A stretch of 63,426 bases of DNA, taken from Bacillota bacterium. GTDB taxonomy: Bacteria > Bacillota > Limnochordia > DTU087. Location of the stretch: positions 1-63,426 of the forward strand of contig JAAZLW010000235.1 of the NCBI GenBank assembly GCA_012799135.1, written 5' to 3'. Positions 6,873 to 61,862 of the stretch are shown here, one piece after another. Below the pieces are notes generated by a model that made no database searches, was not told the origin of the DNA, and was given only the letters and a program-made list of their open reading frames with translations. The stretch's first letter is position 1, and each line of letters begins with the position of its first letter. The position numbers and the translations under genes are program-made.

Positions 6873-7637
6873 ATGTCTTTGGGAAAGTCGCGTCCGAGGG
6901 ACAAGATCATACTTCAGTCCAATGCCCTGGTGACGGTGCTATTGCTTTTGCTATCATTTATCTTTGGCATCAATTCTCCGGATAGCAGGGCACTACCGCC
7001 TGGGAATGGAGAATATAAGGCCTCTCCTGTCGATGGTGAGCTAGGTGGCGGGCTGCGTCGAGATCCTACTTCCTTGCGGGGTAAGGTCATTTTGGTAGAT
7101 CCCGGCCATGGGGGTGCTAATCCCGGTTCCCGGGGGGTGGGTCCCAGACCAGAAAAGGATAATGTCCTGGCTGTGGCTTGGGACCTAAAAGGTATGCTGG
7201 AATATGCGGGTGCGAAAGTGATTATGACAAGGGATGGCGATTATTCGCCTGGAGGGCCAAAAGCGGATCAGCTGGAAGCTCGGGTGCGGATTGCTAACCT
7301 CAGCCGTGGCGATGTCTTTGTTTCCATTCATAATGACTGGAACAAGAACAGCAGCCTGACCGGAACTACCACGTATTTTTACAGTCCTGATGGGTACCAC
7401 TTAGGGGAATCTTTACAGCGAGGTGTAAGCCAAGAACTGAGCTCCCGGAGCTTGGGGGTGAAGTGGGCGAGCTACTACGTATTGAGGAATACGGCTATGC
7501 CTGCAGCCCTGGTGGAACTGGGGTTTCTCAGCAACAAAAGGGAAGCCAATCTTCTGTCTACCCGCTCATATCAAACCAAGGCTGCCTTAGGTATCTATAA
7601 CGGGTTGGTTGAGTACTTTTCCAACAGATCACGATAG
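6873..7637 (+). CDS. N-acetylmuramoyl-L-alanine amidase (Amidase_3; CwlD-like)
   Basis: N-terminal signal/TM segment followed by KVILVDPGHGG...EKD...VIMTRDGD...SIHNDW...ALVELGFLSN, which is typical of Amidase_3. Confidence 0.85.
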   Translation: MSLGKSRPRDKIILQSNALVTVLLLLLSFIFGINSPDSRALPPGNGEYKASPVDGELGGGLRRDPTSLRGKVILVDPGHGGANPGSRGVGPRPEKDNVLAVAWDLKGMLEYAGAKVIMTRDGDYSPGGPKADQLEARVRIANLSRGDVFVSIHNDWNKNSSLTGTTTYFYSPDGYHLGESLQRGVSQELSSRSLGVKWASYYVLRNTAMPAALVELGFLSNKREANLLSTRSYQTKAALGIYNGLVEYFSNRSR

Positions 7638-7835: not shown

Positions 7836-10184
7836 ATGGATCAGAAAACCTTACGTATTTTGGAATTCCATAAGATTCGCCAGCAACTGGCCGCCCATAC
7901 CGCCTTTGCTTTGGGGAGTGAACGGGCGCTTTGGCTTGAACCTTCGGCTGATATCGACACAATCGAAAAGCGGCAGGGAGAGACAGCCGAGGCTCTTATC
8001 CTGATTGATCGGGAGGGGGGATTGCCTTTAGGAGGGGTGCGGGATATCCGTCAGCCGCTCAGAAAGGCAGAGATGGGCTCAACCCTTTCGCCGGAGGACT
8101 TACTGGAGATAGCATCGACCTTATATGGTACCGGTAAGGCTCGTCGGTTTTTGATGGAAAAGACTGGCGATAGCTCCCAACTTAGGGAGCTGGCCCAAAG
8201 ATTGGAACCGGCAGTATCATTGCGGGAGCGAATTGAAGGGAGCATCGGTGATGATGGCGAGGTGCTGGACTCTGCCAGTGAGACTCTGCGCTCCATTAGG
8301 AACCGCATGCGTAGTCTGCAGGGGAGGATTCGCGAGCGATTAGAGTCTATCATCCACAGCAGTCGCTATCAAAAAGTTCTGCAAGATCCGATAATCACTT
8401 TGCGGAATGGAAGATACGTGGTCCCTGTCAAAACAGAGTTCAAAGGTGCGCTACCTGGTATTGTCCATGATCAGTCCGGTTCGGGTGCTACGCTTTTTGT
8501 TGAACCGGCGGCAGTGGTGGAGATTAATAATCAGCTACGGCAGCTAGAGGCCGAAGAAGCCGAGGAAATCGAGAGGATCCTACGTCAGCTGACCTTGGCG
8601 GTGAGTGGTAAGGTCAAGGAGCTGTTGGTATCTGTAGAAACACTGGGTCGCCTGGACTTCATATTTGCCAAAGCGTACCTCGCTGCCAGTCAAGAGGCCA
8701 CAAGGCCACGCCTGCGAACCGATGGCTACTTGGATATGCGGGAAGGTCGGCATCCTTTACTGAAGGGCGAGGTAGTGCCACTGGACATTTGGCTAGGCAA
8801 GGAGTTTACTGTCTTGGTGATCACCGGACCAAACACTGGAGGAAAGACGGTAGCACTGAAGACCTTGGGACTATTGACCTTAATGGCCCAAGCCGGTTTA
8901 CACATTCCTGCCCAGAAGGGGACGGAGATCAACGTGTTTTCCCGAGTCTACGCCGATATCGGGGATGAACAGAGTATTGAGCAGAATCTCAGTACATTCT
9001 CCTCCCATATGGCCAACATTGTGCGGATCATGGATGAAGCTGATAGTAACTCCCTGGTGCTGCTGGATGAGCTGGGAGCCGGTACAGATCCGACGGAGGG
9101 CGCTACCCTGGCTATGGCACTGCTTCAGTGGTTCCATAAGCAAGGTTGTCGAACCGTAGCCACCACTCATTATTCGGAGCTCAAGGCCTTTGCCTATATG
9201 ACCGAGGGCCTGGAGAATGCTTCGGTACAGTTCGATGTTGAGACATTGCGTCCTACGTATAAATTGGAGATCGGCTTGCCCGGAAGGAGTAATGCCTTCG
9301 CTATTGCGGGTCGCCTCGGGCTCAGGGATGAGGTAATTGATCTGGCTCGTGCCCATTTGACCCAGGAAGATATCCGTATAGATGATATGATTCAGGACAT
9401 GGAAGAGAATCGACGTAGGGCTATCCATGAACGTATCGTAGCCGAACGTTTGCGGGCCCATGTGGAGTCTACCAGAGAAGAATATGAGAGGCGTCTGGCA
9501 GGCATGGAAGAGGCGAAAGATGCCATCTTGGCGGCAGCTCGTCAGGAAGCAAGAGAGTTGCTCAGTAGGGCCAAGAGTGATGCTGACGAGCTCCTAGGTC
9601 AACTGCGCAATGCCGATCGAGTTCAGCGGGAGTCCGTTGCCACAGAAGTCCGGTCTTTGCTTGAGAGCAAACGAGAAGCACTGGTAGAGGCCAGACCCGA
9701 AAAACCACCTGAGCCACTCCCAATACAGCTGGAGAAGATGGTGCCCGGTACACCGGTTTACCTGAGCAAATTGAAACAGAAAGGGCGGATCTTGGATCTG
9801 ACAGCCAGTGGTGATGCCCTGGTTCAGGTAGGCGCTTTGCGAGTGACTCTGCCGGCACAGGAGCTGACTGTTACAGAAGAACAACCTATAGCTACCGGAT
9901 CACGGGAGAATATAGGTCTGCGAACCAGCAAGGCCTCGGTGATTTCCAGTGAATTGGATTTGAGGGGGATGACTGTAGAAGAAGCACTGGGTAAGGTAGA
10001 CAAGTACCTGGATGATGCGCTCTTGGCGGGATTAGCCCGGTGCAGGATTATTCACGGCAAAGGCACAGGGGCTCTCCGTTCGGCCATTCGGTCCCAGTTG
10101 GAAACCCATCCTCAGGTGAAAGCCTATCGATGGGGCGAACCCGGCGAGGGGGGAGATGGTGTGACTGTGGCTGAGCTTGGATAA
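7836..10184 (+). CDS. mutS2: endonuclease MutS2
   Basis: Family N-terminus MDQKTLRILEFHKI, Walker A GPNTGGKT, DELGAGTDP, and a C-terminal Smr domain (LDLRGMTVEEAL...HGKGTGALR). The track ORF begins 21 codons earlier. Confidence 0.95.
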   Translation: MDQKTLRILEFHKIRQQLAAHTAFALGSERALWLEPSADIDTIEKRQGETAEALILIDREGGLPLGGVRDIRQPLRKAEMGSTLSPEDLLEIASTLYGTGKARRFLMEKTGDSSQLRELAQRLEPAVSLRERIEGSIGDDGEVLDSASETLRSIRNRMRSLQGRIRERLESIIHSSRYQKVLQDPIITLRNGRYVVPVKTEFKGALPGIVHDQSGSGATLFVEPAAVVEINNQLRQLEAEEAEEIERILRQLTLAVSGKVKELLVSVETLGRLDFIFAKAYLAASQEATRPRLRTDGYLDMREGRHPLLKGEVVPLDIWLGKEFTVLVITGPNTGGKTVALKTLGLLTLMAQAGLHIPAQKGTEINVFSRVYADIGDEQSIEQNLSTFSSHMANIVRIMDEADSNSLVLLDELGAGTDPTEGATLAMALLQWFHKQGCRTVATTHYSELKAFAYMTEGLENASVQFDVETLRPTYKLEIGLPGRSNAFAIAGRLGLRDEVIDLARAHLTQEDIRIDDMIQDMEENRRRAIHERIVAERLRAHVESTREEYERRLAGMEEAKDAILAAARQEARELLSRAKSDADELLGQLRNADRVQRESVATEVRSLLESKREALVEARPEKPPEPLPIQLEKMVPGTPVYLSKLKQKGRILDLTASGDALVQVGALRVTLPAQELTVTEEQPIATGSRENIGLRTSKASVISSELDLRGMTVEEALGKVDKYLDDALLAGLARCRIIHGKGTGALRSAIRSQLETHPQVKAYRWGEPGEGGDGVTVAELG

Positions 10185-20329: not shown

Positions 20330-20833
20330 TTGCTGATATTGGGAATTGATCCGGGGACAGCGATTACAGGATATGGTCTGATCAAGGTTGAGGGAAGCAA
20401 ATTGACCCCGCTTAACTATGGTGCCCTTCGGACTGGAGCAAGGCAAGAGACAGCTGTTCGATTATCTGTCATCCATAGTAATCTGTGCAACCTGATTCGA
20501 GCCGCTACCCCCGATGTAGTAGCAGTCGAGCAGCTTTTTTTCAATACCAATGTCACTACGGCTCTAGCGGTGGGTCAAGCCCGGGGGGTCATCTTGCTGG
20601 CAGTGGCTCAAGCGGAGATACCACTGGTTGAGTATACGCCTTTACAGGTTAAACAGACTGTGACCGGGAATGGGCGAGCGACTAAGCAACAGGTTGGTTA
20701 TATGGTCAAAACTCTACTCAAACTGGAGACTGTCCCTAGTCCTGATGATGTTTCGGATGCCTTGGCTATAGCTATCTGTCATGCTCATTTGGGCTCAACT
20801 TTGGATCGTTTCGCTAGATACGCGCAACAGTAG
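20330..20833 (+). CDS. ruvC: crossover junction endodeoxyribonuclease RuvC
   Basis: TTG start. LILGIDPGTAITGYG plus later catalytic acidic residues (VAVEQLFF, PDDVSDALAIAICH). Confidence 0.93.
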   Translation: MLILGIDPGTAITGYGLIKVEGSKLTPLNYGALRTGARQETAVRLSVIHSNLCNLIRAATPDVVAVEQLFFNTNVTTALAVGQARGVILLAVAQAEIPLVEYTPLQVKQTVTGNGRATKQQVGYMVKTLLKLETVPSPDDVSDALAIAICHAHLGSTLDRFARYAQQ

Positions 20834-30311: not shown

Positions 30312-30385
30312 ATCGAGGGAATCTATATATAAAAGGGGTTAAGACGTGATTGGTTTTATTTGGGTAATGGGAAGGGGGGAGCACG

Positions 30386-33015: not shown

Positions 33016-36105
<3,090 letters not shown>

Positions 36106-39802: not shown

Positions 39803-40234
39803 ATGTTCATGGGAGAATGGCAACATACGCTTGATGCGAAGGGCCGTCTAATCATCCCAGCTAGATTCCGAGAACAGCTAGGGGACCGGTTCGTAGTGAC
39901 CAGAGGGCTGGACCACTGTCTTTTTGTATATCCCCCTGACGAATGGAGCATATTGGAGGAGAAACTGAAGTCACTGCCCTTGACCCAAGGTGATGCGCGC
40001 AGGTTTGTCCGATTTCTCTTTTCCGGAGCGATTGAATGTGAAGTGGACAAACAAGGTAGGATCACCCTTCCGGGGAATTTGAGAGACTATGCCAAACTAG
40101 ACAAAAACGTGGCGGTGATCGGAGTCTCCAATCGAGTAGAGATCTGGGCTAAGGAATACTGGGAGACATATATGGAGGAGGCCAGTGCCTCCTATGAGGA
40201 GATCGCGGAGAAGATCGTCGATCTTGGCATTTAG
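39803..40234 (+). CDS. mraZ: division/cell wall cluster transcriptional repressor MraZ
   Basis: Canonical N-terminus [23 protein letters not shown] and a second SpoVT/AbrB repeat ([16 protein letters not shown]). The track ORF extends 22 codons upstream across the repeat boxes. Confidence 0.93.
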
Positions 40235-40287
40235 TAGGTGCAGCTTACTGATAGAAGAGCGCAACCTGGAGAAAGCTTGGTGGAGTT

Positions 40288-41247
40288 TTGAATTATCAGC
40301 ATGTACCGGTATTGGCCCAAGAGGTAATCGAGTTGCTTTGCTGGCGGCAAGGCGGAATCTATGTCGATGCCACAGTCGGTGGAGGAGGCCATGCCCGGCT
40401 GGTACTGGATGCGGTCGGGACTGAAGCAAGGCTAGTTGCTTTTGATCAGGATCCCGTTGCCCTAGATGCTGCCCGGGAGATGCTGCAAGACAAGGCAGAT
40501 CAGATTATCTTTATTGGCTCAAATTTCGTGCATCTATACAGCATCTTGACCGAGCGACAACTGTTGCCCATCGACGGAATTTTGTTCGATCTGGGAGTCT
40601 CGTCACCCCAGTTGGATGTGGCTCAGCGGGGCTTTAGCTATCGTTATGATGCACCACTGGATATGCGGATGGATCCACAATCAGCGGTAACTGCAGCACA
40701 CCTGTTAGCAACTCTTTCCGAGGAAGAGCTGGCCAAAATAATCGCTGAGTATGGCGAGGAACGCTGGGCAAAACGCATTGCCAAGTTTATTGTGCTAGAA
40801 CGGAAGCAATCCCCCATCACAAATACAGGGCACCTGGTGGATGTAATCAAGGCTGCGATACCGGCTGGGGCTCGTCGCCGGGGACCGCATCCGGCTCGCA
40901 GGACCTTTCAGGCATTGAGAATTGCAGTGAATCGGGAATTGGAGTTCCTCAAACAAGCTTTAGTCGATGCGGTAAAGGTACTTAGGCCCAATGGTCGCAT
41001 TGCAGTGATTAGTTTCCATTCCTTGGAGGACCGAATCGTCAAAGAGACTTTCAGTAGGTTAGCTGCTGGATGTCAGTGCCCACCGGATTTGCCTGTCTGT
41101 GTCTGCAACCGGCAGGCAGAGTTGGAGATTATTACCCGCAAGCCGATAATACCATCGGCTGCAGAAACCACCCAAAACCCTCGAGCCCGCAGTGCCAAAC
41201 TCAGAGTGGCACAGAAGGTTCTACCGGATGAAGGGGATGAATATTGA
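40288..41247 (+). CDS. rsmH: 16S rRNA (cytosine1402-N4)-methyltransferase
   Basis: TTG start. HVPVLAQEV, DATVGGGGHA, DLGVSSPQLD, FHSLEDRIVK. Confidence 0.95.
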   Translation: MNYQHVPVLAQEVIELLCWRQGGIYVDATVGGGGHARLVLDAVGTEARLVAFDQDPVALDAAREMLQDKADQIIFIGSNFVHLYSILTERQLLPIDGILFDLGVSSPQLDVAQRGFSYRYDAPLDMRMDPQSAVTAAHLLATLSEEELAKIIAEYGEERWAKRIAKFIVLERKQSPITNTGHLVDVIKAAIPAGARRRGPHPARRTFQALRIAVNRELEFLKQALVDAVKVLRPNGRIAVISFHSLEDRIVKETFSRLAAGCQCPPDLPVCVCNRQAELEIITRKPIIPSAAETTQNPRARSAKLRVAQKVLPDEGDEY

Positions 41248-41768
41248 TGGTACTGGCAGCGAAGCGTCAAGAGGCATATGAGGAAGTATGGGAGGCGCTC
41301 CCCCGTCATGAACAGCCGGTGCGCAAGCGTCGGCGGCGGTTACGCCTGCACCCCATGATTCTTCTGTCTTTGCTAGCGGTACTCATGGTGGTACTGACGG
41401 CTTTGGGAATCAGCCAGAAGATCAAGGCCATTGAACTGGAGTATCAGTTGCAGTCTTTGGAAGCCGAACTCAGCCAAGTGTAGCGTGAAGGGCAACAGCT
41501 TCAGCTCAAGGTAGAGCAACTGCAATCCCTAACTCATATTGAGAGTCTGGCCCGCAGCCGTTTGGGTATGGTGGAACCACAAGGAGCCAAGGTTCTGGTG
41601 TTAGTAGATTGGGATGCCTGGCCTGGTACCGAGCGAGCGAAGACCCCGGCGGATACGCGTACAGTCCTGGCAACACAAACCCGGCGCTTGTGGACTGCCA
41701 TCTATCAATGGGTAGGGGCACGGCTTCCCACGCTGGGTACAGCGGAAGCTGGGCTTTTACAGCGGTAG
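41247..41768 (+). CDS. ftsL: cell division protein FtsL, interrupted by an in-frame TAG at 41481-41483
   Basis: ATG 41247 overlaps the rsmH stop (TGATG). The N-terminal part has a TM helix plus coiled coil (IKAIELEYQLQSLEAELSQV). After the TAG, the same frame continues open with the conserved FtsL region REGQQLQLKVEQLQSLTHIESLARSRLGMVEP and ends at TAG 41766-41768. The track splits it into 41244-41483 and 41562-41768, which share one frame. Confidence 0.6.
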
Positions 41769-41837
41769 ATAATCTGATATTATAGACTGGGGCCACCCCT
41801 CCGGCCGGAGGCCGTAGGTCTGGTGGCTTAGTTTTTT

Positions 41838-43982
41838 ATGGTGTCGGGAGGTAAACCGGTGGTCAGGTTAACGGCAATGGAAGTCCGGAAACGGATCGCT
41901 GTGGTATTCCTGGGTGTCATGGCCTGTATTGGGGTGCTTTTTCTGCGTTTGGCCTATCTACAGGTTGCACAGAATCATTGGTATCAAGAGAAAGCTCTTC
42001 ATCAGAGAATGCGCCCTGTTCCGGTAGATGCTAAGCGGGGCGTTATTTATGATCAGAGTCTACAGAAGCTGGCGATTAGTGTAAGTGCCGACGCAGTCTA
42101 TGCGATCCCTGCTGAAGTGGATAAGCCAAAGGAAACCGCTCAGGCCTTAGCACCCTTGTTGAACACAGATGCTGCCTCCTTGGAGGAGAAGCTCACCAAG
42201 AAGCAGGCAACTGTCTGGCTGGCCCGCAAGCTGGATACCGAAACTGCCCGGGCGATTAGGGCACTGGATCTCGCCGGTATTGGTTTGGTGGAACGACCGC
42301 AGAGATACTATCCCCATGGTGAGTTAGCTGCCCAAGTTTTAGGGATCGCCGGTATTGATAATCAGGGACTGGAAGGCCTGGAGTTCTTTTATGATGAATA
42401 TCTGCGAGGAGTACCAGGTAGGGTCGTGATGGAGCGGGATGCCACGGGCCGCGAGATTCCGGATGGAATTAAGCGTTTTGTGCCGCCTGAGGACGGTGCC
42501 AACCTGGTCTTGACTCTGGACCATGTGATCCAATATGCAGCTGAGCGAGAACTGGCCCGGGCGGTTCAGGAAACCGGCTCTGACCAAGGTGTGTTTATTG
42601 CCATGGATCCCAAAACCGGCGGGATTCTGGCCCTTGCCATCTATCCATCCTATGATCCTAACAACTATACAGCACATCCTGTGCAGAATCGGCGCAATAT
42701 CGCCATCACTGATCAATATGAACCGGGTTCAACTTTCAAGATAGTGACCGCCAGTGCCGCCCTCGACGAAGGGGTTGTGACCCCTGGTACACGCTTCTAC
42801 GATCCAGGCTATATCAAGATCGGAGGGGTAACCGTCCGTTGCTGGCGGGCAGGGGGTCATGGTTCCCAGACTTTCGTCGAAGCTGTCGAGAATTCATGCA
42901 ATCCGGTTTTTGCTGAACTCGGGGCCGAGCGGTTGGGAGGCGAACGTTTCTACAAGTATATCCAACGATATGGCTTTGGTGCCCAGACCGGTATAGACTT
43001 TCCCGGCGAAGCAAAAGGTACGGTGCCGGTACCGGGCAAGGTGCAATGGGGGGAGGTTGCCCGCTGGGCCAATGTCGGTTTTGGCCAGGGGATCGGTGTT
43101 ACTCCTTTGCAGCTGCTTAGTGCAATGGCCACCATTGCCAATGGGGGTATAAAGGTCACTCCACACTTCATGAAGGAAATTCGGGACCGCAATGGCCGGG
43201 TGATTGAGCAATATCCTATTACTGGCTCCCGTGTACTCAAGGAAGAGACAGTGGCCGAATTTACCCAGATCCTGCGCTCAGTAATAGTAAACGGATCGGG
43301 AAGTAGAGCAGAGATTTCCGGTTACCGGGTGGCAGGAAAAACCGGGACCGCCCAAGTGGCAGAAGGTGGGAGATACACGGACCGGCGGATTTCGTCCTTC
43401 GTCTGGTTTGCACCGGCCGATGATCCCCGGATAGCGGCGCTAGTAGTACTATACTATCCAAAGGGTCAGACATATGGTGGCGTGATCGCTGCACCGGTAT
43501 TTCAGGCAGTAGTGGAAGACGCCCTAGAGAGGATGGGTGTGCCGCGGCGACAGGAACCGGCGCCTAGGTCTCAAGGGAACATTTTCCAGCAGAAAGACGT
43601 AAGTGTTCCCAATGTGATTAATTTCCCCCAGCAGGAGGCAGAGACTATTCTGCGACAGGCTGGTCTGAAATACCAATTCAACGGTGAAGGTAAGATAGTC
43701 TTCGATCAAGTACCGGCACCGGGGACTGAAGTCCCTTGGGGGACGATCGTCCAATTGCTGGCCTATAATGAGGTCGTATATGATGCAGGTGATAAACGGG
43801 TCACCGTTCCTGAAGTTGTCGGTCTGAGCATGCGAGAGGTGGCAGCGAAATTGGCTCACTCCGGTTTGAGGTTGCAGGTATATGGTTCAGGAGTGGCTGT
43901 TAAGCAGGATCCGGTCCCCGGAACCAAGGTTCCTTTGGACTTCATTGTTAAAGTCTTTTTTGAATCACCGACTTCGAATTGA
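41838..43982 (+). CDS. class B penicillin-binding protein with two PASTA domains (PBP2B/SpoVD/FtsI type)
   Basis: N-terminal TM segment, dimerisation domain, STFK, SCN and KTGT motifs, and two C-terminal PASTA repeats (VPNVINFPQQEAETIL..., VPEVVGLSMREVAAKL...). Confidence 0.93.
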   Translation: MVSGGKPVVRLTAMEVRKRIAVVFLGVMACIGVLFLRLAYLQVAQNHWYQEKALHQRMRPVPVDAKRGVIYDQSLQKLAISVSADAVYAIPAEVDKPKETAQALAPLLNTDAASLEEKLTKKQATVWLARKLDTETARAIRALDLAGIGLVERPQRYYPHGELAAQVLGIAGIDNQGLEGLEFFYDEYLRGVPGRVVMERDATGREIPDGIKRFVPPEDGANLVLTLDHVIQYAAERELARAVQETGSDQGVFIAMDPKTGGILALAIYPSYDPNNYTAHPVQNRRNIAITDQYEPGSTFKIVTASAALDEGVVTPGTRFYDPGYIKIGGVTVRCWRAGGHGSQTFVEAVENSCNPVFAELGAERLGGERFYKYIQRYGFGAQTGIDFPGEAKGTVPVPGKVQWGEVARWANVGFGQGIGVTPLQLLSAMATIANGGIKVTPHFMKEIRDRNGRVIEQYPITGSRVLKEETVAEFTQILRSVIVNGSGSRAEISGYRVAGKTGTAQVAEGGRYTDRRISSFVWFAPADDPRIAALVVLYYPKGQTYGGVIAAPVFQAVVEDALERMGVPRRQEPAPRSQGNIFQQKDVSVPNVINFPQQEAETILRQAGLKYQFNGEGKIVFDQVPAPGTEVPWGTIVQLLAYNEVVYDAGDKRVTVPEVVGLSMREVAAKLAHSGLRLQVYGSGVAVKQDPVPGTKVPLDFIVKVFFESPTSN

Positions 43983-44069
43983 GATGGTGGCACAGCACCC
44001 CATAAAATAGGTTTAGATGGGAGAAACTACATATTACGTTACAAATCTGGCAGATAGATCAGGGGTTGG

Positions 44070-45608
44070 TTGGCAGTGACAATAGACGAGCTGGCTCGTT
44101 GCCTATCACAAGTGGATCTCCGAGGTGATCCCGATACAAAGATTCAGGGGATCGCCTACGATTCTCGGCAGGTACGGCCGGGGGATCTGTTTGTCTGTAT
44201 TAAAGGCTTCCGTTTCGATGGCCATGCCTTTATCAGTGATGCTTTAGAGCGGGGAGCCGTAGGTTTGGTGGTAGACGACAGTAGTATGATCCCCAGAAGG
44301 GATCAATACTGTGGAGAGGAAGGCTTTGCTCCCGTTCCAGCTTCAGTGCCAGTACTCTACACTAAGGATACGCGCAAGGCTCTGGGCCTGTTAGGTGCCT
44401 GCTTCTATCGTTATCCTTCACGCAAACTGGGGCTAATCGGGGTTACCGGTACCAAAGGTAAGACCACCACCACTTACCTGATTAAATCTATCCTGGAAGC
44501 TGCAGGCCACAGGGTGGGTCTGATTGGCACTATTCAGAACGTGATCGGCAATAAATCACTGCCGACAGAACGCACCACTCCGGAATCGGTCGATCTGCAG
44601 TCTTTGTTTAGTCAGATGGTAGATGATGCCTGCGACTATGCTGTCATGGAGGTTTCCTCGCATGCCCTTAAACTGCAGCGCACGATCGGCAGTGAGTTTG
44701 ATATCGGCGTATTTACCAATCTCAGCCAGGACCATTTGGACTTTCATCCTAGTTTCCAAGACTATCTGGACACAAAGACCGGGTTTTTTGCGAATCTAGG
44801 AATAGAAGGTACCACAAAGCACAAGACAGCGATTCTAAACTATGATGAGAGGTACTGCGATTATATAAGGGAAAGGACCTCGGTCTCGGTGATCACCTAT
44901 GGTACCCGATCAGGCGCCACGTACAGGGCCAGGGATATTGCCATTGGGACCTCCGGGCTTACCTACAGGCTGGAACACCCTGGCGGCGAAGAGCTGATTG
45001 ACCTACCCATGACAGGGTACTTTAATGTCTATAATTCACTAGCCGCTTTATCTACCTGTCTGGCAGTGGGGATTGATTTACCGGTGGCAGTACGGGGTCT
45101 GGAAACGGCACGGCCAGTACCCGGCCGGTTAGAGCCGATAGAGCGGGGCCAGGATTTCACCGTATTAGTGGACTATGCCCATAATCCAGCTAGCTTGGAG
45201 AATGCTTTGGAGACGGTCAAAGGTCTTACGCGGGGACGCAGCATCGTCGTCTTTGGTTGTGGTGGAGATCGAGATAGAACTAAGCGTCCCCTGATGGGCG
45301 AAATCGCAGGTCGATTGGCAGATGCTGTGATAGTAACATCCGATAATCCTCGCAGCGAAACACCGGAGTTGATCTGTGAGGAAATAGGTGTTGGTGTGAG
45401 CAAGACCATCGGGGATAAGCCATGGGCAATAATTGTTGACCGGCATCGGGCGATCAAGCGGGCCGTACAGATGGCCGAGTCCGGAGATACTGTCTTGATC
45501 GCCGGTAAGGGTCATGAGCCTTATCAGATTCTAAAAGACCGGACGATTCATTTCGATGATAGGGAGGAGGCAGCCAGGGCCCTGGATGAGCACCTGGAGT
45601 CAAGATGA
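44070..45608 (+). CDS. murE: UDP-N-acetylmuramoyl-L-alanyl-D-glutamate--2,6-diaminopimelate ligase
   Basis: GVTGTKGKTTT P-loop and a DNPR motif (TSDNPRSE) indicating meso-DAP specificity. TTG start. Confidence 0.95.
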   Translation: MAVTIDELARCLSQVDLRGDPDTKIQGIAYDSRQVRPGDLFVCIKGFRFDGHAFISDALERGAVGLVVDDSSMIPRRDQYCGEEGFAPVPASVPVLYTKDTRKALGLLGACFYRYPSRKLGLIGVTGTKGKTTTTYLIKSILEAAGHRVGLIGTIQNVIGNKSLPTERTTPESVDLQSLFSQMVDDACDYAVMEVSSHALKLQRTIGSEFDIGVFTNLSQDHLDFHPSFQDYLDTKTGFFANLGIEGTTKHKTAILNYDERYCDYIRERTSVSVITYGTRSGATYRARDIAIGTSGLTYRLEHPGGEELIDLPMTGYFNVYNSLAALSTCLAVGIDLPVAVRGLETARPVPGRLEPIERGQDFTVLVDYAHNPASLENALETVKGLTRGRSIVVFGCGGDRDRTKRPLMGEIAGRLADAVIVTSDNPRSETPELICEEIGVGVSKTIGDKPWAIIVDRHRAIKRAVQMAESGDTVLIAGKGHEPYQILKDRTIHFDDREEAARALDEHLESR

Positions 45609-47053
45609 AACCCATATCTGTAGCGCAGATCACACAGTGGACCGGTGGCAAACAGCTAGAAGGCCATATTCCACAAAGTATAACTGGAATTTCCACAGAT
45701 AGTCGCACCCTGAAGCCGGGAGATTTGTTCATTCCCTTGCGGGGTGAGAGATTCGATGGCCATGACTTCGTGGCTGACGCTGTTCGCCGGGAAGCGGCTG
45801 CCCTGCTCATTGAGGAGCGTCGAGTGAGTGAATGTGTTGAAAAACGGCAGGAGATGGATCGTGGAAGGCAGCCGCTTATACTCGCAGTGCCTGACACTCT
45901 GTTGGCTCTACAGGCAATTGCTGCCGGCTATAGAAAGCAGTTTGACCACCCGGTGGTGGCCATTACGGGCAGCACCGGCAAAACGACGACTAAAGATATG
46001 ACGGCAAGCATAGTTGGTCAGCTGGGTCCGGTGCTTAAGTCACAGGAGAATTTCAATAATGAAATAGGGTTACCCTTAACCCTTCTGCAGATAGAGAGCT
46101 GGCATAGAACCGTGGTGGTAGAAATGGGCATGCGAGGTCCAGGGCAGATCCGGACATTGACAGAGCTGGCCCGACCGAGTGTTGGTGTGATTACCAATGT
46201 AGGGACTGTTCACCTGGAGCTCTTAGGATCGCAAGAAGCGATCCAGAAGGCGAAACAAGAGCTGGTGGAAACCATGGAACCCGGCGGGATAGTGGCATTG
46301 AATGCTGATGATCCCTTGGTTAGGGAAATGGCCTCAATGGCGTCAGATAAGCAGATCATCTACTATGGGTATGAGGGGGTCCAATGTGATCACGCTGGAT
46401 CCTCCAACACTGGGTACGTCACAGCCACCAATATCACCGCGCGTGGTGCCCAGGGAGTCTCTTTCCAGCTATGTTATGACGGTCACCGTGCCTGGATAGA
46501 CCTTCCCGTTCCCGGTGAATACCAAGTCAGCAACGCCTTAGGCGCTGCCGCTGCGGCTATGGCGGTAGGAGCCAGCCTTGCGGATGTTAAGGCAGGCTTA
46601 TCACAGGTGTCGCTTTCCGGGATGAGAATGGAGCTGATCCCCTGGTTGGACGAAGGCCTGGTGATCAATGATGCCTACAATGCTAACCCTACATCTATGG
46701 CCGGTGCACTCAAAACCGCCTATGAGATTGCTGCCGGTCGCCCTTTGGTCTTGGTGCTCGGTGATATGCTGGAGCTCGGTCACTTATCCACCAAGGCCCA
46801 TCGCGATATCGGCCGCCAGGCAGCAGATCTAGGTCCAGCTTATCTCCTTACTGTAGGTGTTGCGGCCAAAGGGATTGCCGAAGGCGCCCGAGATGCGGGC
46901 ATGCCTTTGGAGCGAGTAGTTCAGTGTACAGATCACAGCGAAGCCGGGCAAGTGGTCATTCAAATTGCCAGACCAGGTGATGTGGTCTTGGTGAAAGGGT
47001 CCCGGGGCATGGCCCTTGAACATGTAGTGCAGGCCCTTTGTGCTAAACTGTAA
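45605..47053 (+). CDS. murF: UDP-N-acetylmuramoyl-tripeptide--D-alanyl-D-alanine ligase
   Basis: 4-nt overlap with murE. ITGSTGKTTTKDM P-loop and a Mur ligase C-terminal domain. Confidence 0.94.
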   Translation: MKPISVAQITQWTGGKQLEGHIPQSITGISTDSRTLKPGDLFIPLRGERFDGHDFVADAVRREAAALLIEERRVSECVEKRQEMDRGRQPLILAVPDTLLALQAIAAGYRKQFDHPVVAITGSTGKTTTKDMTASIVGQLGPVLKSQENFNNEIGLPLTLLQIESWHRTVVVEMGMRGPGQIRTLTELARPSVGVITNVGTVHLELLGSQEAIQKAKQELVETMEPGGIVALNADDPLVREMASMASDKQIIYYGYEGVQCDHAGSSNTGYVTATNITARGAQGVSFQLCYDGHRAWIDLPVPGEYQVSNALGAAAAAMAVGASLADVKAGLSQVSLSGMRMELIPWLDEGLVINDAYNANPTSMAGALKTAYEIAAGRPLVLVLGDMLELGHLSTKAHRDIGRQAADLGPAYLLTVGVAAKGIAEGARDAGMPLERVVQCTDHSEAGQVVIQIARPGDVVLVKGSRGMALEHVVQALCAKL

Positions 47054-60436: not shown

Positions 60437-60641
60437 CTATCGGGACCTCCTTTAGCCTTTCCCCAATGATCTGTCATCACTACGACATGTTGTGTTTTCA
60501 CCGCGGGCTTGCCGTTTCCTGCTGATGCAAGATAATATCTGTGAGTTTAAAGGTATCTCACGGGAGTAAGTCAAGCTATTACTAAAGTCTTGTTATGTGG
60601 GGTATGTATTATGTGTAAGTAATCTGCGAAGGAGGATGACA

Positions 60642-61862
60642 ATGGCAGTTGTACAGGTCAAAGATGGTGTTCATTGGGTAGGTGCAGTGGATTGGAATAA
60701 CCGTTATTTTCATGGTGTTACATACAGCACCCATCGGGGAACGACCTATAATGCTTATCTGGTGGCGGGGGAGAAGTATAGAGCCTTGGTCGATACCGTA
60801 TACACTCCCTTCAGCGAAGTCTTGGTATCTCACCTAACAGAGCTGGTTAGTATGAAGGATATCGATTATGTGGTAGTAAACCATGTGGAGATCGATCACT
60901 CGGGTGCTTTGCCCCGGATCATGGAGCTTTGTCCCCAGGCCAAGATATGTTGCAGCCGAAAAGCATTGGAGCCCTTACGGAAGCACTTCGGTGATCAAGG
61001 CTGGGAGATGCATCCCGTTAAAACCGGTGATGTCCTAGATCTAGGGGGCAAGACGATTCGCTTTATTGAAGCACCTATGCTTCATTGGCCGGACAGCATG
61101 TTCTCGTATATTCCTGAAGATAAGCTCCTACTGCCCAATGATGCTTTCGGTCAGCATTTGGCCTCTTCCCATCGGTTTGATGATCAGGTGGATAACGCCA
61201 TTCTCATGGATGAGGCTGCCAAGTACTATGCCAACATACTCCTGCCCTTTAGCGCATTGGTTGAAAGAAAACTAAGAGAGATCGACGAGCTAGGGATCGA
61301 GATTGATACCATTGCTCCTAGTCATGGCGTGATCTGGCGTCAGGATCCAGGCCAGATCATTAATGCCTATCAAAGATGGGCGACTGGGTTGGAGACTCCG
61401 GGGCGCGTATCTCCCGAAATCGTAGTCGTTTTTGATACCATGTGGGGCAGTACGGAGAAAATGGCTGAGGCCATTGCTGAACAGCTATCGGCCCAGGGCT
61501 ATAGGATCAGTCTGTACAACATCGGTAAGAGTGATTACAGTGACATAATCAGGGAGATACTGGAAGCCAAGGCTGTCATCATTGGTTCATCTACTATCAA
61601 TAATGGCATGTTGCCCTCTCTCAGCCCGCTGATGGAGGAGCTGGTGGGGCTTAAGCCCAAAGGGAGAATTGGTGCGGCCTTTGGCTCCCATGGTTGGAGG
61701 GGCGGAGCCGTGAAACAGATCTCCACAACGCTCACCGATGCAGGTATCAATCTGGTAGGGGACGGGCTAGCTATTCAGTGGGTGCCAGACAGAGAAGACC
61801 TGGAGGCTTGCCGCAATCTCGCCCGCAAGGTGGGTTCGGTTTTGGCCAGCCGGGCGAAGTAG
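60642..61862 (+). CDS. fprA: FprA family A-type flavoprotein (flavodiiron O2/NO reductase)
   Basis: Metallo-beta-lactamase-like diiron domain (NHVEIDHSG, PNDAFGQH) plus a C-terminal flavodoxin domain (VVVFDTMWGSTEKMA). ATG 60642 lies 6 nt after GGAGG. Confidence 0.9.
   Translation: MAVVQVKDGVHWVGAVDWNNRYFHGVTYSTHRGTTYNAYLVAGEKYRALVDTVYTPFSEVLVSHLTELVSMKDIDYVVVNHVEIDHSGALPRIMELCPQAKICCSRKALEPLRKHFGDQGWEMHPVKTGDVLDLGGKTIRFIEAPMLHWPDSMFSYIPEDKLLLPNDAFGQHLASSHRFDDQVDNAILMDEAAKYYANILLPFSALVERKLREIDELGIEIDTIAPSHGVIWRQDPGQIINAYQRWATGLETPGRVSPEIVVVFDTMWGSTEKMAEAIAEQLSAQGYRISLYNIGKSDYSDIIREILEAKAVIIGSSTINNGMLPSLSPLMEELVGLKPKGRIGAAFGSHGWRGGAVKQISTTLTDAGINLVGDGLAIQWVPDREDLEACRNLARKVGSVLASRAK

What the first reader, a model, noticed from the sequence alone, without database searches (positions are those of the whole stretch)
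41247..41768. In-frame amber codon splits ftsL, with the conserved C-terminal region intact in the same frame
The ftsL reading frame stops at TAG 41481-41483 after ...LQSLEAELSQV. The same frame then continues without another stop for 94 sense codons. These begin with the segment that is most conserved in Firmicute FtsL (QLQLKVEQLQSLTHIESLARSRLGMVEP).

I checked the frame codon by codon: 41562 minus 41244 is 318, a multiple of 3. ftsL is normally essential.

Possible explanations are a base-call error, a very recent nonsense mutation, a strain-specific suppressor or programmed read-through, or a split protein re-initiating at TTG 41562 or ATG 41568. Pyrrolysine recoding seems unlikely because TAG ends many ordinary genes in this window.
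Basis: seen in the sequence. Interest (0 to 1): 0.65.

Follow-up and report, generated by a model that had tools for sequence, protein, structure and literature searches.

The report
Lone private stop codon in ftsL
The stop codon that cuts the cell-division gene ftsL in two is really in this draft genome, but it is a one-letter change (TAC to TAG) that seven other assemblies of the same species do not have, so it is an ordinary base error or defective allele and not an unusual way of reading the genetic code.

Summary
TAG at 41481-41483 lies in frame inside a 173-codon ftsL/DivIC-family gene (ATG 41247 to TAG 41766-41768), followed by 94 open codons that carry the family's most conserved block.

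The recoding explanations fail.
- Seven contigs from seven other biogas-reactor metagenomes are 99.4-99.9% identical to this region. All read TAC (Tyr) at the site, and the protein is otherwise identical at 172/172 residues.
- All 11 same-family relatives and 15 database homologues have uninterrupted genes, with Q, H or R at the site.
- TAG is the commonest terminator here (611 of 1434 long ORFs) and also ends ftsL itself.
- RF1 is intact, no PylS was found, and no tRNA with a CUA anticodon was found.
- There is no Shine-Dalgarno motif before TTG 41562 or ATG 41568.

This draft MAG also carries a private TAA in its single-copy fabF and a private Gly-to-Trp change in an invariant motif of the neighbouring PBP. 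So this is a private point substitution: a consensus error or a defective allele.

Interest is low.

The parts
41247..41768 (+). ftsL (FtsL/DivIC-family division gene), 173 codons plus stop. It lies between rsmH (40288-41247, whose TGA overlaps the ATG by one base) and the class B PBP gene (41838-43982).
   Evidence: Intact 171-177 aa orthologues occupy the same place in all relatives.
41247..41480 (+). N-terminal piece (78 codons from ATG): basic cytoplasmic tail, one membrane helix (about residues 36-56), and the first ~23 residues of the coiled coil.
   Evidence: A database holds it as a 79-aa protein called from TTG 41244, seen on this contig only.
41481..41483 (+). In-frame TAG. The G at 41483 is the only difference from conspecific TAC (Tyr79).
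   Evidence: L031-L037 from seven samples all have C at 41483. L038 (ERZ778607) has G.
41484..41765 (+). 94 open codons encoding the conserved coiled-coil end and C-terminal domain of FtsL. There are no differences from conspecific contigs here.
   Evidence: dN/dS against relatives is 0.09-0.39.
41766..41768 (+). The true terminator of ftsL, itself a TAG.
   Evidence: Relatives end at the same ...AEAGLLQR.
41562..41570 (+). No Shine-Dalgarno-like motif lies upstream.
   Evidence: the upstream 20 nt are AGAGTCTGGCCCGCAGCCGT and TGGCCCGCAGCCGTTTGGGT.
43404..43404 (+). Second window-private damaging change, 1.9 kb downstream: GGG to TGG. This gives Gly523Trp in the SF(V/A)GFAP motif of the PBP, which is invariant in all relatives compared.

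Best explanation
ftsL of this species is an ordinary, uninterrupted 173-codon gene. In this one draft metagenome-assembled genome the Tyr79 codon TAC reads TAG, because of a single C-to-G difference at 41483. UAG is a normal stop codon in this organism, so the deposited sequence encodes a truncated FtsL. That product lacks the conserved distal coiled coil and C-terminal domain, and it is a lesion, not a decoding feature.

Shown:
- The change is private.
- The species' normal codon is TAC.
- TAG is the main terminator.
- RF1 is present.
- The downstream half is under purifying selection in relatives.

Inferred: the G is either a consensus or read-level error in a low-coverage draft (my lean, about 55%), or a real but defective allele in that sample's DNA (about 35-40%). 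The lean towards error rests on the company it keeps. The same MAG has a private TAA in its single-copy fabF and a private Gly-to-Trp change in an invariant PBP motif. All three are transversions at G:C pairs, while its other private differences are mostly synonymous.
For: - Seven contigs from seven other samples, 99.4-99.9% identical over 40205-45768, all carry TAC. For L036 and L037 the G/C at 41483 is the only mismatch in 1.0-1.4 kb.
- Protein P0019 equals the read-through product at 172/172 other residues, with Y at the site.
- All 11 same-family genomes and 15 database homologues have intact genes, and only this genome shows a stop. Codons at the site in relatives are CAC, CAA and CGG.
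- TAG ends 611 of 1434 long ORFs and 31 of 56 in the window. prfA is intact at 558 bits.
- PylS best hit is 25 bits against a cut-off of 178. No tRNA with anticodon CUA was found.
- fabF (C67:10094-10096) reads TAA where conspecific L056 has TCA, and fabF is single copy.
- PBP G523W is private and falls in an invariant motif.
- The 285 nt after the stop show no decay.
Against: - The same G occurs in a second, separately built contig (L038, ENA ERZ778607). Another contig from that sample differs from the window at two other positions. The G is therefore in reads, or in a real allele, and is not an assembler slip.
- L038 carries limited weight. It is a low-coverage (3.2) inter-species chimera, and the site lies 36 nt from its end.
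- The tRNA set of the MAG is incomplete (no Tyr, His, Ile or Thr genes), so a suppressor tRNA cannot be excluded.
Confidence: 0.88

Rival explanations
1. The TAG is the true majority allele of a viable strain. FtsL is completed because UAG (and perhaps UAA) is partly read through, either by a suppressor tRNA such as a tRNA-Tyr derivative with a CUA or UUA anticodon (which would restore the wild-type Tyr) or by leaky termination.
For: - The G allele appears in two assemblies.
- The ancestral codon is Tyr, one base from TAG.
- The site tolerates Q, H, R and Y in relatives.
- The MAG lacks many tRNA genes, so a suppressor could be unbinned.
- fabF carries a private TAA, which an ochre-type suppressor could also read.
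Against: - No tRNA with anticodon CUA, or UUA read as a suppressor, was found.
- TAG and TAA together end about 70% of genes, so efficient suppression would be costly.
- RF1 is intact.
- Suppression does not explain the private Gly523Trp.
- The other in-frame stops in real genes sit in a decayed prophage and a decaying rhamnose locus. They include a TGA and look like ordinary pseudogenes.
Confidence: 0.06
2. UAG is decoded as pyrrolysine or is reassigned genome-wide to an amino acid.
For: Only that the frame stays open and conserved after the TAG.
Against: - No PylS was found and no tRNA-CUA.
- TAG is the commonest terminator and ends ftsL itself.
- RF1 is intact.
- Conspecifics have TAC.
Confidence: 0.01
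3. FtsL is made as two polypeptides. The 78-aa membrane piece is translated first, and a C-terminal piece is re-initiated at TTG 41562 or ATG 41568. Together they do the job.
For: In-frame start codons exist 27 and 29 codons after the stop. An ENA gene caller called the 66-aa piece.
Against: - No SD motif lies upstream.
- The restart would drop 28 residues, including the invariant block E91-G108.
- The piece has no signal or membrane segment, so it would stay in the cytoplasm. The FtsL regions that act on the synthases lie outside the membrane, near the distal end of the coiled coil (PMC10076392).
- The split is not seen in any relative.
Confidence: 0.02
4. ftsL is truly being lost in this lineage because it has become dispensable.
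For: The neighbouring PBP also carries a damaging private change.
Against: - No further changes have accumulated after the stop.
- Conspecific strains 99.9% identical keep the gene intact.
- The C-terminal half has dN/dS of 0.09-0.39 in relatives.
- The DivIC-type paralogue on C53 is intact, with an open 166-aa frame.
Confidence: 0.02

Closest known systems
Internal-stop 'pseudogenes' in metagenome-assembled genomes (lone private nonsense codons in essential genes)
   Same: It is a single-base change, private to one draft assembly, in a single-copy essential gene. There is no downstream decay, and relatives and conspecifics are intact. A second case, fabF, occurs in the same MAG.
   Different: Here a second, separately built contig shares the base. 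A plain assembler slip is therefore excluded, and the cause lies in the reads or in a real allele.
FtsL of the FtsQ-FtsL-FtsB (DivIB-FtsL-DivIC) divisome complex (Pfam DivIC PF04977 / FtsL PF04999; TIGR02209)
   Same: It is a bitopic small protein with a basic tail, one membrane helix and a coiled coil. The gene sits between rsmH and the division PBP gene in the dcw cluster. The conserved distal coiled coil corresponds in position to the E. coli CCD and AWI regions (residues about 82-94; PMC10076392).
   Different: In this assembly the gene is cut after the first ~23 extracytoplasmic residues. It also has a longer C-terminal extension (about 60 residues, ending ...AEAGLLQR) than the Pfam domain covers.
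Amber suppression and UAG recoding systems (supF-type tRNA-Tyr suppressors; pyrrolysine pylTSBCD; lineages that never end genes in TAG)
   Same: An in-frame UAG sits in a conserved essential gene, and the ancestral codon is Tyr, the classic supF case.
   Different: None of the defining parts were found. TAG is the main terminator, RF1 is present, and the stop is not shared by conspecific strains.

Membership tests
FtsL/DivIC family (PF04977, PF04999, TIGR02209) | Profile match above the curated cut-off | tested here: met
   The read-through product scores 40.9 bits on PF04977 against a cut-off of 28.9, spanning the stop. TIGR02209 scores 35.3 against 42.45 and PF04999 scores 19.5 against 22.9, both below cut-off. 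This shows membership of the DivIC/FtsL superfamily; the FtsL assignment itself rests on gene position.
FtsL/DivIC family (PF04977, PF04999, TIGR02209) | Gene position between rsmH and the division PBP gene in the dcw cluster | tested here: met
   The order is mraZ, rsmH 40288-41247, ftsL, PBP 41838-43982, murE 44070-45608.
FtsL/DivIC family (PF04977, PF04999, TIGR02209) | Uninterrupted bitopic protein of about 100-180 aa | tested here: not met
   In this assembly the frame is cut at codon 79. It is met in all conspecific contigs and relatives.
Pyrrolysine decoding | PylS (catalytic domain, TIGR02367) present | tested here: not met
   Best hit is 25.1 bits against a cut-off of 178, consistent with ordinary class II synthetases.
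Pyrrolysine decoding | tRNA-Pyl with CUA anticodon | tested here: not met
   ARAGORN found 36 tRNAs in the whole genome, none with CUA. The MAG's tRNA set is incomplete.
Genome-wide UAG reassignment | TAG absent or rare as a terminator | tested here: not met
   TAG ends 611 of 1434 long ORFs (43%) and 31 of 56 in the window. It is the commonest stop.
Genome-wide UAG reassignment | Loss of release factor 1 | tested here: not met
   prfA scores 557.7 bits, over the cut-off, with an open frame.
Programmed stop-codon read-through | The stop is conserved at the site in conspecifics or relatives | tested here: not met
   Seven conspecific contigs have TAC. Relatives have CAC, CAA or CGG.
Amber-suppressor strain | A suppressor tRNA gene in the genome | tested here: inconclusive
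   None was found. However, the genes for tRNA-Tyr, His, Ile, Thr and others are missing from the bins, so absence is not proven.
Private nonsense lesion or consensus error in a MAG | The change is restricted to this assembly lineage, with no downstream decay | tested here: met
   One further contig (L038) shares it.
Private nonsense lesion or consensus error in a MAG | Read support at the site (allele fraction, strand balance, duplicates) | not testable with these tools

The most novel reading that the evidence does not exclude
The TAG in ftsL and the TAA in fabF are true majority alleles of a living anaerobic-digester Bacillota strain. That strain survives because it carries an unbinned suppressor tRNA (a tRNA-Tyr derivative would restore wild-type FtsL exactly). 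This would be a natural suppressor strain in a genome that ends about 70% of its genes in TAG or TAA.
Probability: 0.05. Interest if true: 0.55.

Novelty: not a real feature. Interest (0 to 1): 0.08.

Why it matters
It matters little for biology. It shows that this species has a normal FtsL and a normal genetic code.

It does matter for annotation. The 79-aa 'protein' on record for this contig is a fragment, and the draft genome carries at least two private nonsense codons in essential single-copy genes (ftsL and fabF). It also carries a radical change in the division PBP. Lone in-frame stops in this MAG should therefore not be read as recoding.

If the small-probability suppressor reading were true, it would be a rare natural example of nonsense suppression in an uncultured anaerobe.

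Tried and rejected
- **JGI metagenome scans.** A protein-pattern scan and an exact DNA pattern with N at the variable base both found nothing, so I gained no further allele counts.
- **Window-strain alleles elsewhere.** Exact look-ups of the window's PBP (Trp allele) and flavodiiron protein returned no record. The FtsQ-like K182 allele turned out to be shared with ERZ27280802. I therefore could not show whether ERZ778607 is the MAG's source sample.
- **Apparent rpoD frameshift.** The private one-base length difference at 30374 is a G-run in the SD region upstream of GTG 30386, not a frameshift in rpoD.
- **Excess of in-frame TAG.** After filtering, the codon-usage scan gave 15 TAG, 6 TGA and 5 TAA candidates. 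Most were non-coding or antisense frames with no Pfam match. The real cases use all three stop codons.
- **TAG-recoded prophage.** The in-frame TAGs in TerL and portal on C300 lie in a truncated element that ends in recombinase genes and encodes no suppressor tRNA. I read it as a decayed prophage.
- **Chimeric origin of TAG.** A splice of TAC (this species) with CAG (a relative) is rejected, because the two positions are 2 nt apart and would need reads that carry both.

Full report
**The observation**

The window reads ...CAA GTG TAG CGT GAA GGG... with TAG at 41481-41483, in the frame that opens at TTG 41244 / ATG 41247. The frame then stays open for 94 codons up to a second TAG at 41766-41768. 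Read through, the 174-residue product has these parts:
- a basic tail (RKRRRRLRLHP);
- one hydrophobic helix;
- a heptad-rich stretch;
- a C-terminal extension.

It matches Pfam DivIC (PF04977) over residues 44-112, right across the stop, at E 1.8e-10 and 40.9 bits (cut-off 28.9). Neither half reaches the cut-off alone. The FtsL-specific models score below their cut-offs: TIGR02209 35.3 against 42.45, PF04999 19.5 against 22.9. The FtsL name therefore rests on the family match plus gene position, between rsmH (40288-41247) and the class B PBP gene (41838-43982), followed by murE.

**The genome**

The window is contig C128 of a 3.10-Mb draft in 362 contigs. It is 50% G+C, with estimated 96% completeness and 6.7% contamination. 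Its relatives in public collections are all 'MAG: Bacillota bacterium' from anaerobic digesters.

**Relatives**

I searched 41 related genomes in six frames with stops read through. Every one has a match, and the window's own genome is the only one with a stop inside it. All 11 same-family genomes have open frames of 173-179 aa. Fifteen database homologues at 56-85% identity are 171-177 aa long and align end to end.

The block just after the stop holds most of the invariant columns: R81, E82, Q84, L86, E91, S95, L96, I99, A103, R104, R106-M109 and P112. At the stop column the relatives have Q, H or R, encoded by CAA, CAC and CGG in the loci I could read. dN/dS of the C-terminal 94 codons against relatives is 0.09-0.39. 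The downstream frame is therefore a working coding region in the family, and relatives do not end the protein here.

**The same species elsewhere**

An exact-sequence cluster look-up of the 79-aa fragment returned a 173-aa member, P0019. It equals the window's read-through product at all 172 other residues and has Tyr at the stop column. Seven contigs from seven different samples encode it: five ENA assemblies (two labelled biogas fermenter metagenome), one Logan run and one JGI metagenome. They are 99.4-99.9% identical to window 40205-45768, and all read TAC where the window reads TAG. For L036 and L037 this is the only mismatch in 1.0-1.4 kb.

The window therefore differs by one C-to-G change at 41483, and the species' normal gene is intact. 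No other change has accumulated in the 285 nt after the stop.

**A second contig with the G**

The 66-aa C-terminal piece is on record once more, on ENA contig L038 (ERZ778607, coverage 3.2). L038 reads TAG.
- It is identical to the window for 612 nt (41446-42057).
- After that it is 98.8% identical to a sister species (L040) and only 85% identical to the window, so it is an inter-species chimera.
- The TAG lies 36 nt from its end.
- Another contig of the same sample (L050) differs from the window at 34648 and 37667, so the two assemblies are not the same consensus.

The shared G therefore comes from shared reads or from a real allele, not from an assembler slip. Two scans of the JGI contig collection also found nothing.

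**Tests of recoding**

- TAG is the commonest terminator: 611 of 1434 stop-to-stop ORFs of 300 codons or more, and 31 of 56 ORFs of 150 codons or more in the window. It also ends ftsL itself.
- prfA (RF1) is present and open, at 557.7 bits.
- The PylS catalytic-domain model finds only ordinary class II synthetases, 25 bits against a cut-off of 178.
- ARAGORN finds 36 tRNA genes, none with a CUA anticodon. It does find a tRNA-Sec on C22.
- The set lacks Tyr, His, Ile, Thr and other tRNA genes, so a suppressor cannot be formally excluded.
- The restart codons TTG 41562 and ATG 41568 have no Shine-Dalgarno-like sequence upstream.
- A product from those restarts would lack both the membrane helix and 28 residues of the invariant block.

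In E. coli, the FtsL residues that control and activate the septal synthases (CCD about 88-94; AWI R61, R82-E87, A90) lie near the distal end of the coiled coil, outside the membrane (PMC10076392). By position, that region here falls just after the stop. This last step is inference.

**Is the assembly otherwise clean?**

I compared about 25 kb of the window with conspecific contigs from eight samples.

There are 18 window-private substitutions and one length difference in a G-run. The G-run lies in the SD region of rpoD and is harmless. The substitutions break down as follows:
- Most are synonymous, or R/K exchanges.
- Nine cluster in 61349-61735, in the flavodiiron gene, and look like an imported tract.
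- Two are damaging: the ftsL stop, and G-to-T at 43404. The second turns Gly523 of the PBP into Trp inside SF(V/A)GFAP, which is invariant in all eight relatives compared.

I also ran a genome-wide scan for stops flanked on both sides by coding-like sequence and followed it with Pfam. Five more real genes have in-frame stops.
- **fabF, C67:10094-10096, TAA.** It falls inside the Ketoacyl-synt_C domain, in NAHGT-X-TQYND. A conspecific contig (L056) has TCA (Ser) there, the intact 412-aa protein is on record, and fabF is single copy. This is a second private nonsense codon in an essential gene, this time TAA.
- **TerL (C300:7503-7505) and portal (C300:9149-9151), both TAG.** They lie in a truncated prophage that ends in recombinase genes. 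This stretch is 100% identical to a contig from another sample, so these stops are real and shared.
- **Rhamnose-type ABC ATPase (C280:20830-20832, TAG, inside LSAAEQ-X-LVEIVKAL) and a probable GH78 rhamnosidase (C280:19804-19806, TGA, where I would expect Trp).** I identified both by eye and did not scan either against Pfam, and the rhamnosidase was not compared with any relative. They lie 1 kb apart. The ATPase's C-terminal fragment is on record on three contigs, and no intact conspecific copy was found, so this locus looks like shared, real decay.

In-frame stops here use all three stop codons and fall into two classes: shared pseudogenes in accessory DNA, and private hits in essential genes.

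**Reading**

The private hits are C-to-G, C-to-A and G-to-T: all transversions at G:C pairs, all severely damaging, all in single-copy essential genes. The strain's other private differences look like ordinary neutral variation. A living strain with nonsense codons in both ftsL and fabF and a Trp in the PBP motif is hard to credit.

A rate of about one consensus error per 10-20 kb in a fragmented, low-coverage draft would account for all three, and for the number of nonsense codons my scan found. I lean to error (about 55%) over a real defective allele (about 35-40%). The second contig keeps the latter open.

Either way the mechanism is a private point substitution in a normal gene. It is not read-through, pyrrolysine, reassignment or a working split protein. 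The suppressor-strain reading stays at about 5%.

**Earlier notes of this scan**

Earlier notes describe the same pattern in other MAGs: lone private stops in mrdA, infB and prfB. By contrast, they also describe lineages that read TAG as an amino acid and never end genes in TAG. The present genome fails that criterion outright.

Noticed in passing
window 43404 (PBP gene 41838-43982, codon 523): Window-private GGG to TGG gives Gly523Trp in the SF(V/A)GFAP motif. All conspecific contigs and five more distant relatives have Gly there. This is probably a second error or lesion 1.9 kb from the ftsL stop.
   Followed up: yes
genome contig C67:10094-10096 (outside the window): The single-copy fabF has an in-frame TAA in NAHGT-X-TQYND. 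Conspecific contig L056 (ERZ773357) has TCA (Ser), and the intact 412-aa protein is on record.
   Followed up: yes
genome contig C300:6738-9439 (L057 is identical): A prophage remnant has in-frame TAG in the large terminase (7503-7505, ...ENLFR-X-LRLNQW...) and in the portal (9149-9151, inside the Phage_portal domain). It is 100% identical in another sample's assembly and is followed directly by serine-recombinase genes. I read it as a decayed prophage rather than a TAG-recoded phage, but did not test this further.
   Followed up: partly
genome contig C280:19804-19806 and 20830-20832: Two in-frame stops lie 1 kb apart in one sugar-use locus. One is a TGA in a probable GH78 rhamnosidase, where I would expect Trp (...EYAS-X-LYPVVQG...; identified by eye, not compared with relatives). 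The other is a TAG in the signature motif of a rhamnose-type ABC ATPase. The ATPase fragment is on record on three contigs, so this looks like real, shared gene decay.
   Followed up: partly
L038 (ENA ERZ778607 NODE_61461), window 41446-43881: This is an inter-species chimeric contig. Its first 612 nt are identical to this species and the rest is 98.8% identical to the sister species of L040. L034 has a TAA 18 nt from its end, and L035 has 10 mismatches in its first 100 nt. These public assemblies are unreliable at contig ends.
   Followed up: yes
window 61349-61735 (flavodiiron protein gene 60597-61862): Nine window-private substitutions fall within 390 nt, both synonymous and not, against three conspecific contigs. 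This looks like a recombined or hypervariable tract.
   Followed up: no
window 30369-30375: The G-run upstream of the rpoD-like gene is one base longer here than in two conspecific contigs. It lies in the SD region before GTG 30386. Gene callers on the other contigs call a 378-aa product from an upstream start, against 365 aa here.
   Followed up: partly
whole genome: Only 36 tRNA genes were found. There are none for Tyr, His, Ile or Thr, and several other isoacceptors are also missing. A tRNA-Sec lies on C22:11061-11157, which fits the selenoprotein candidate noted earlier in this window.
   Followed up: no
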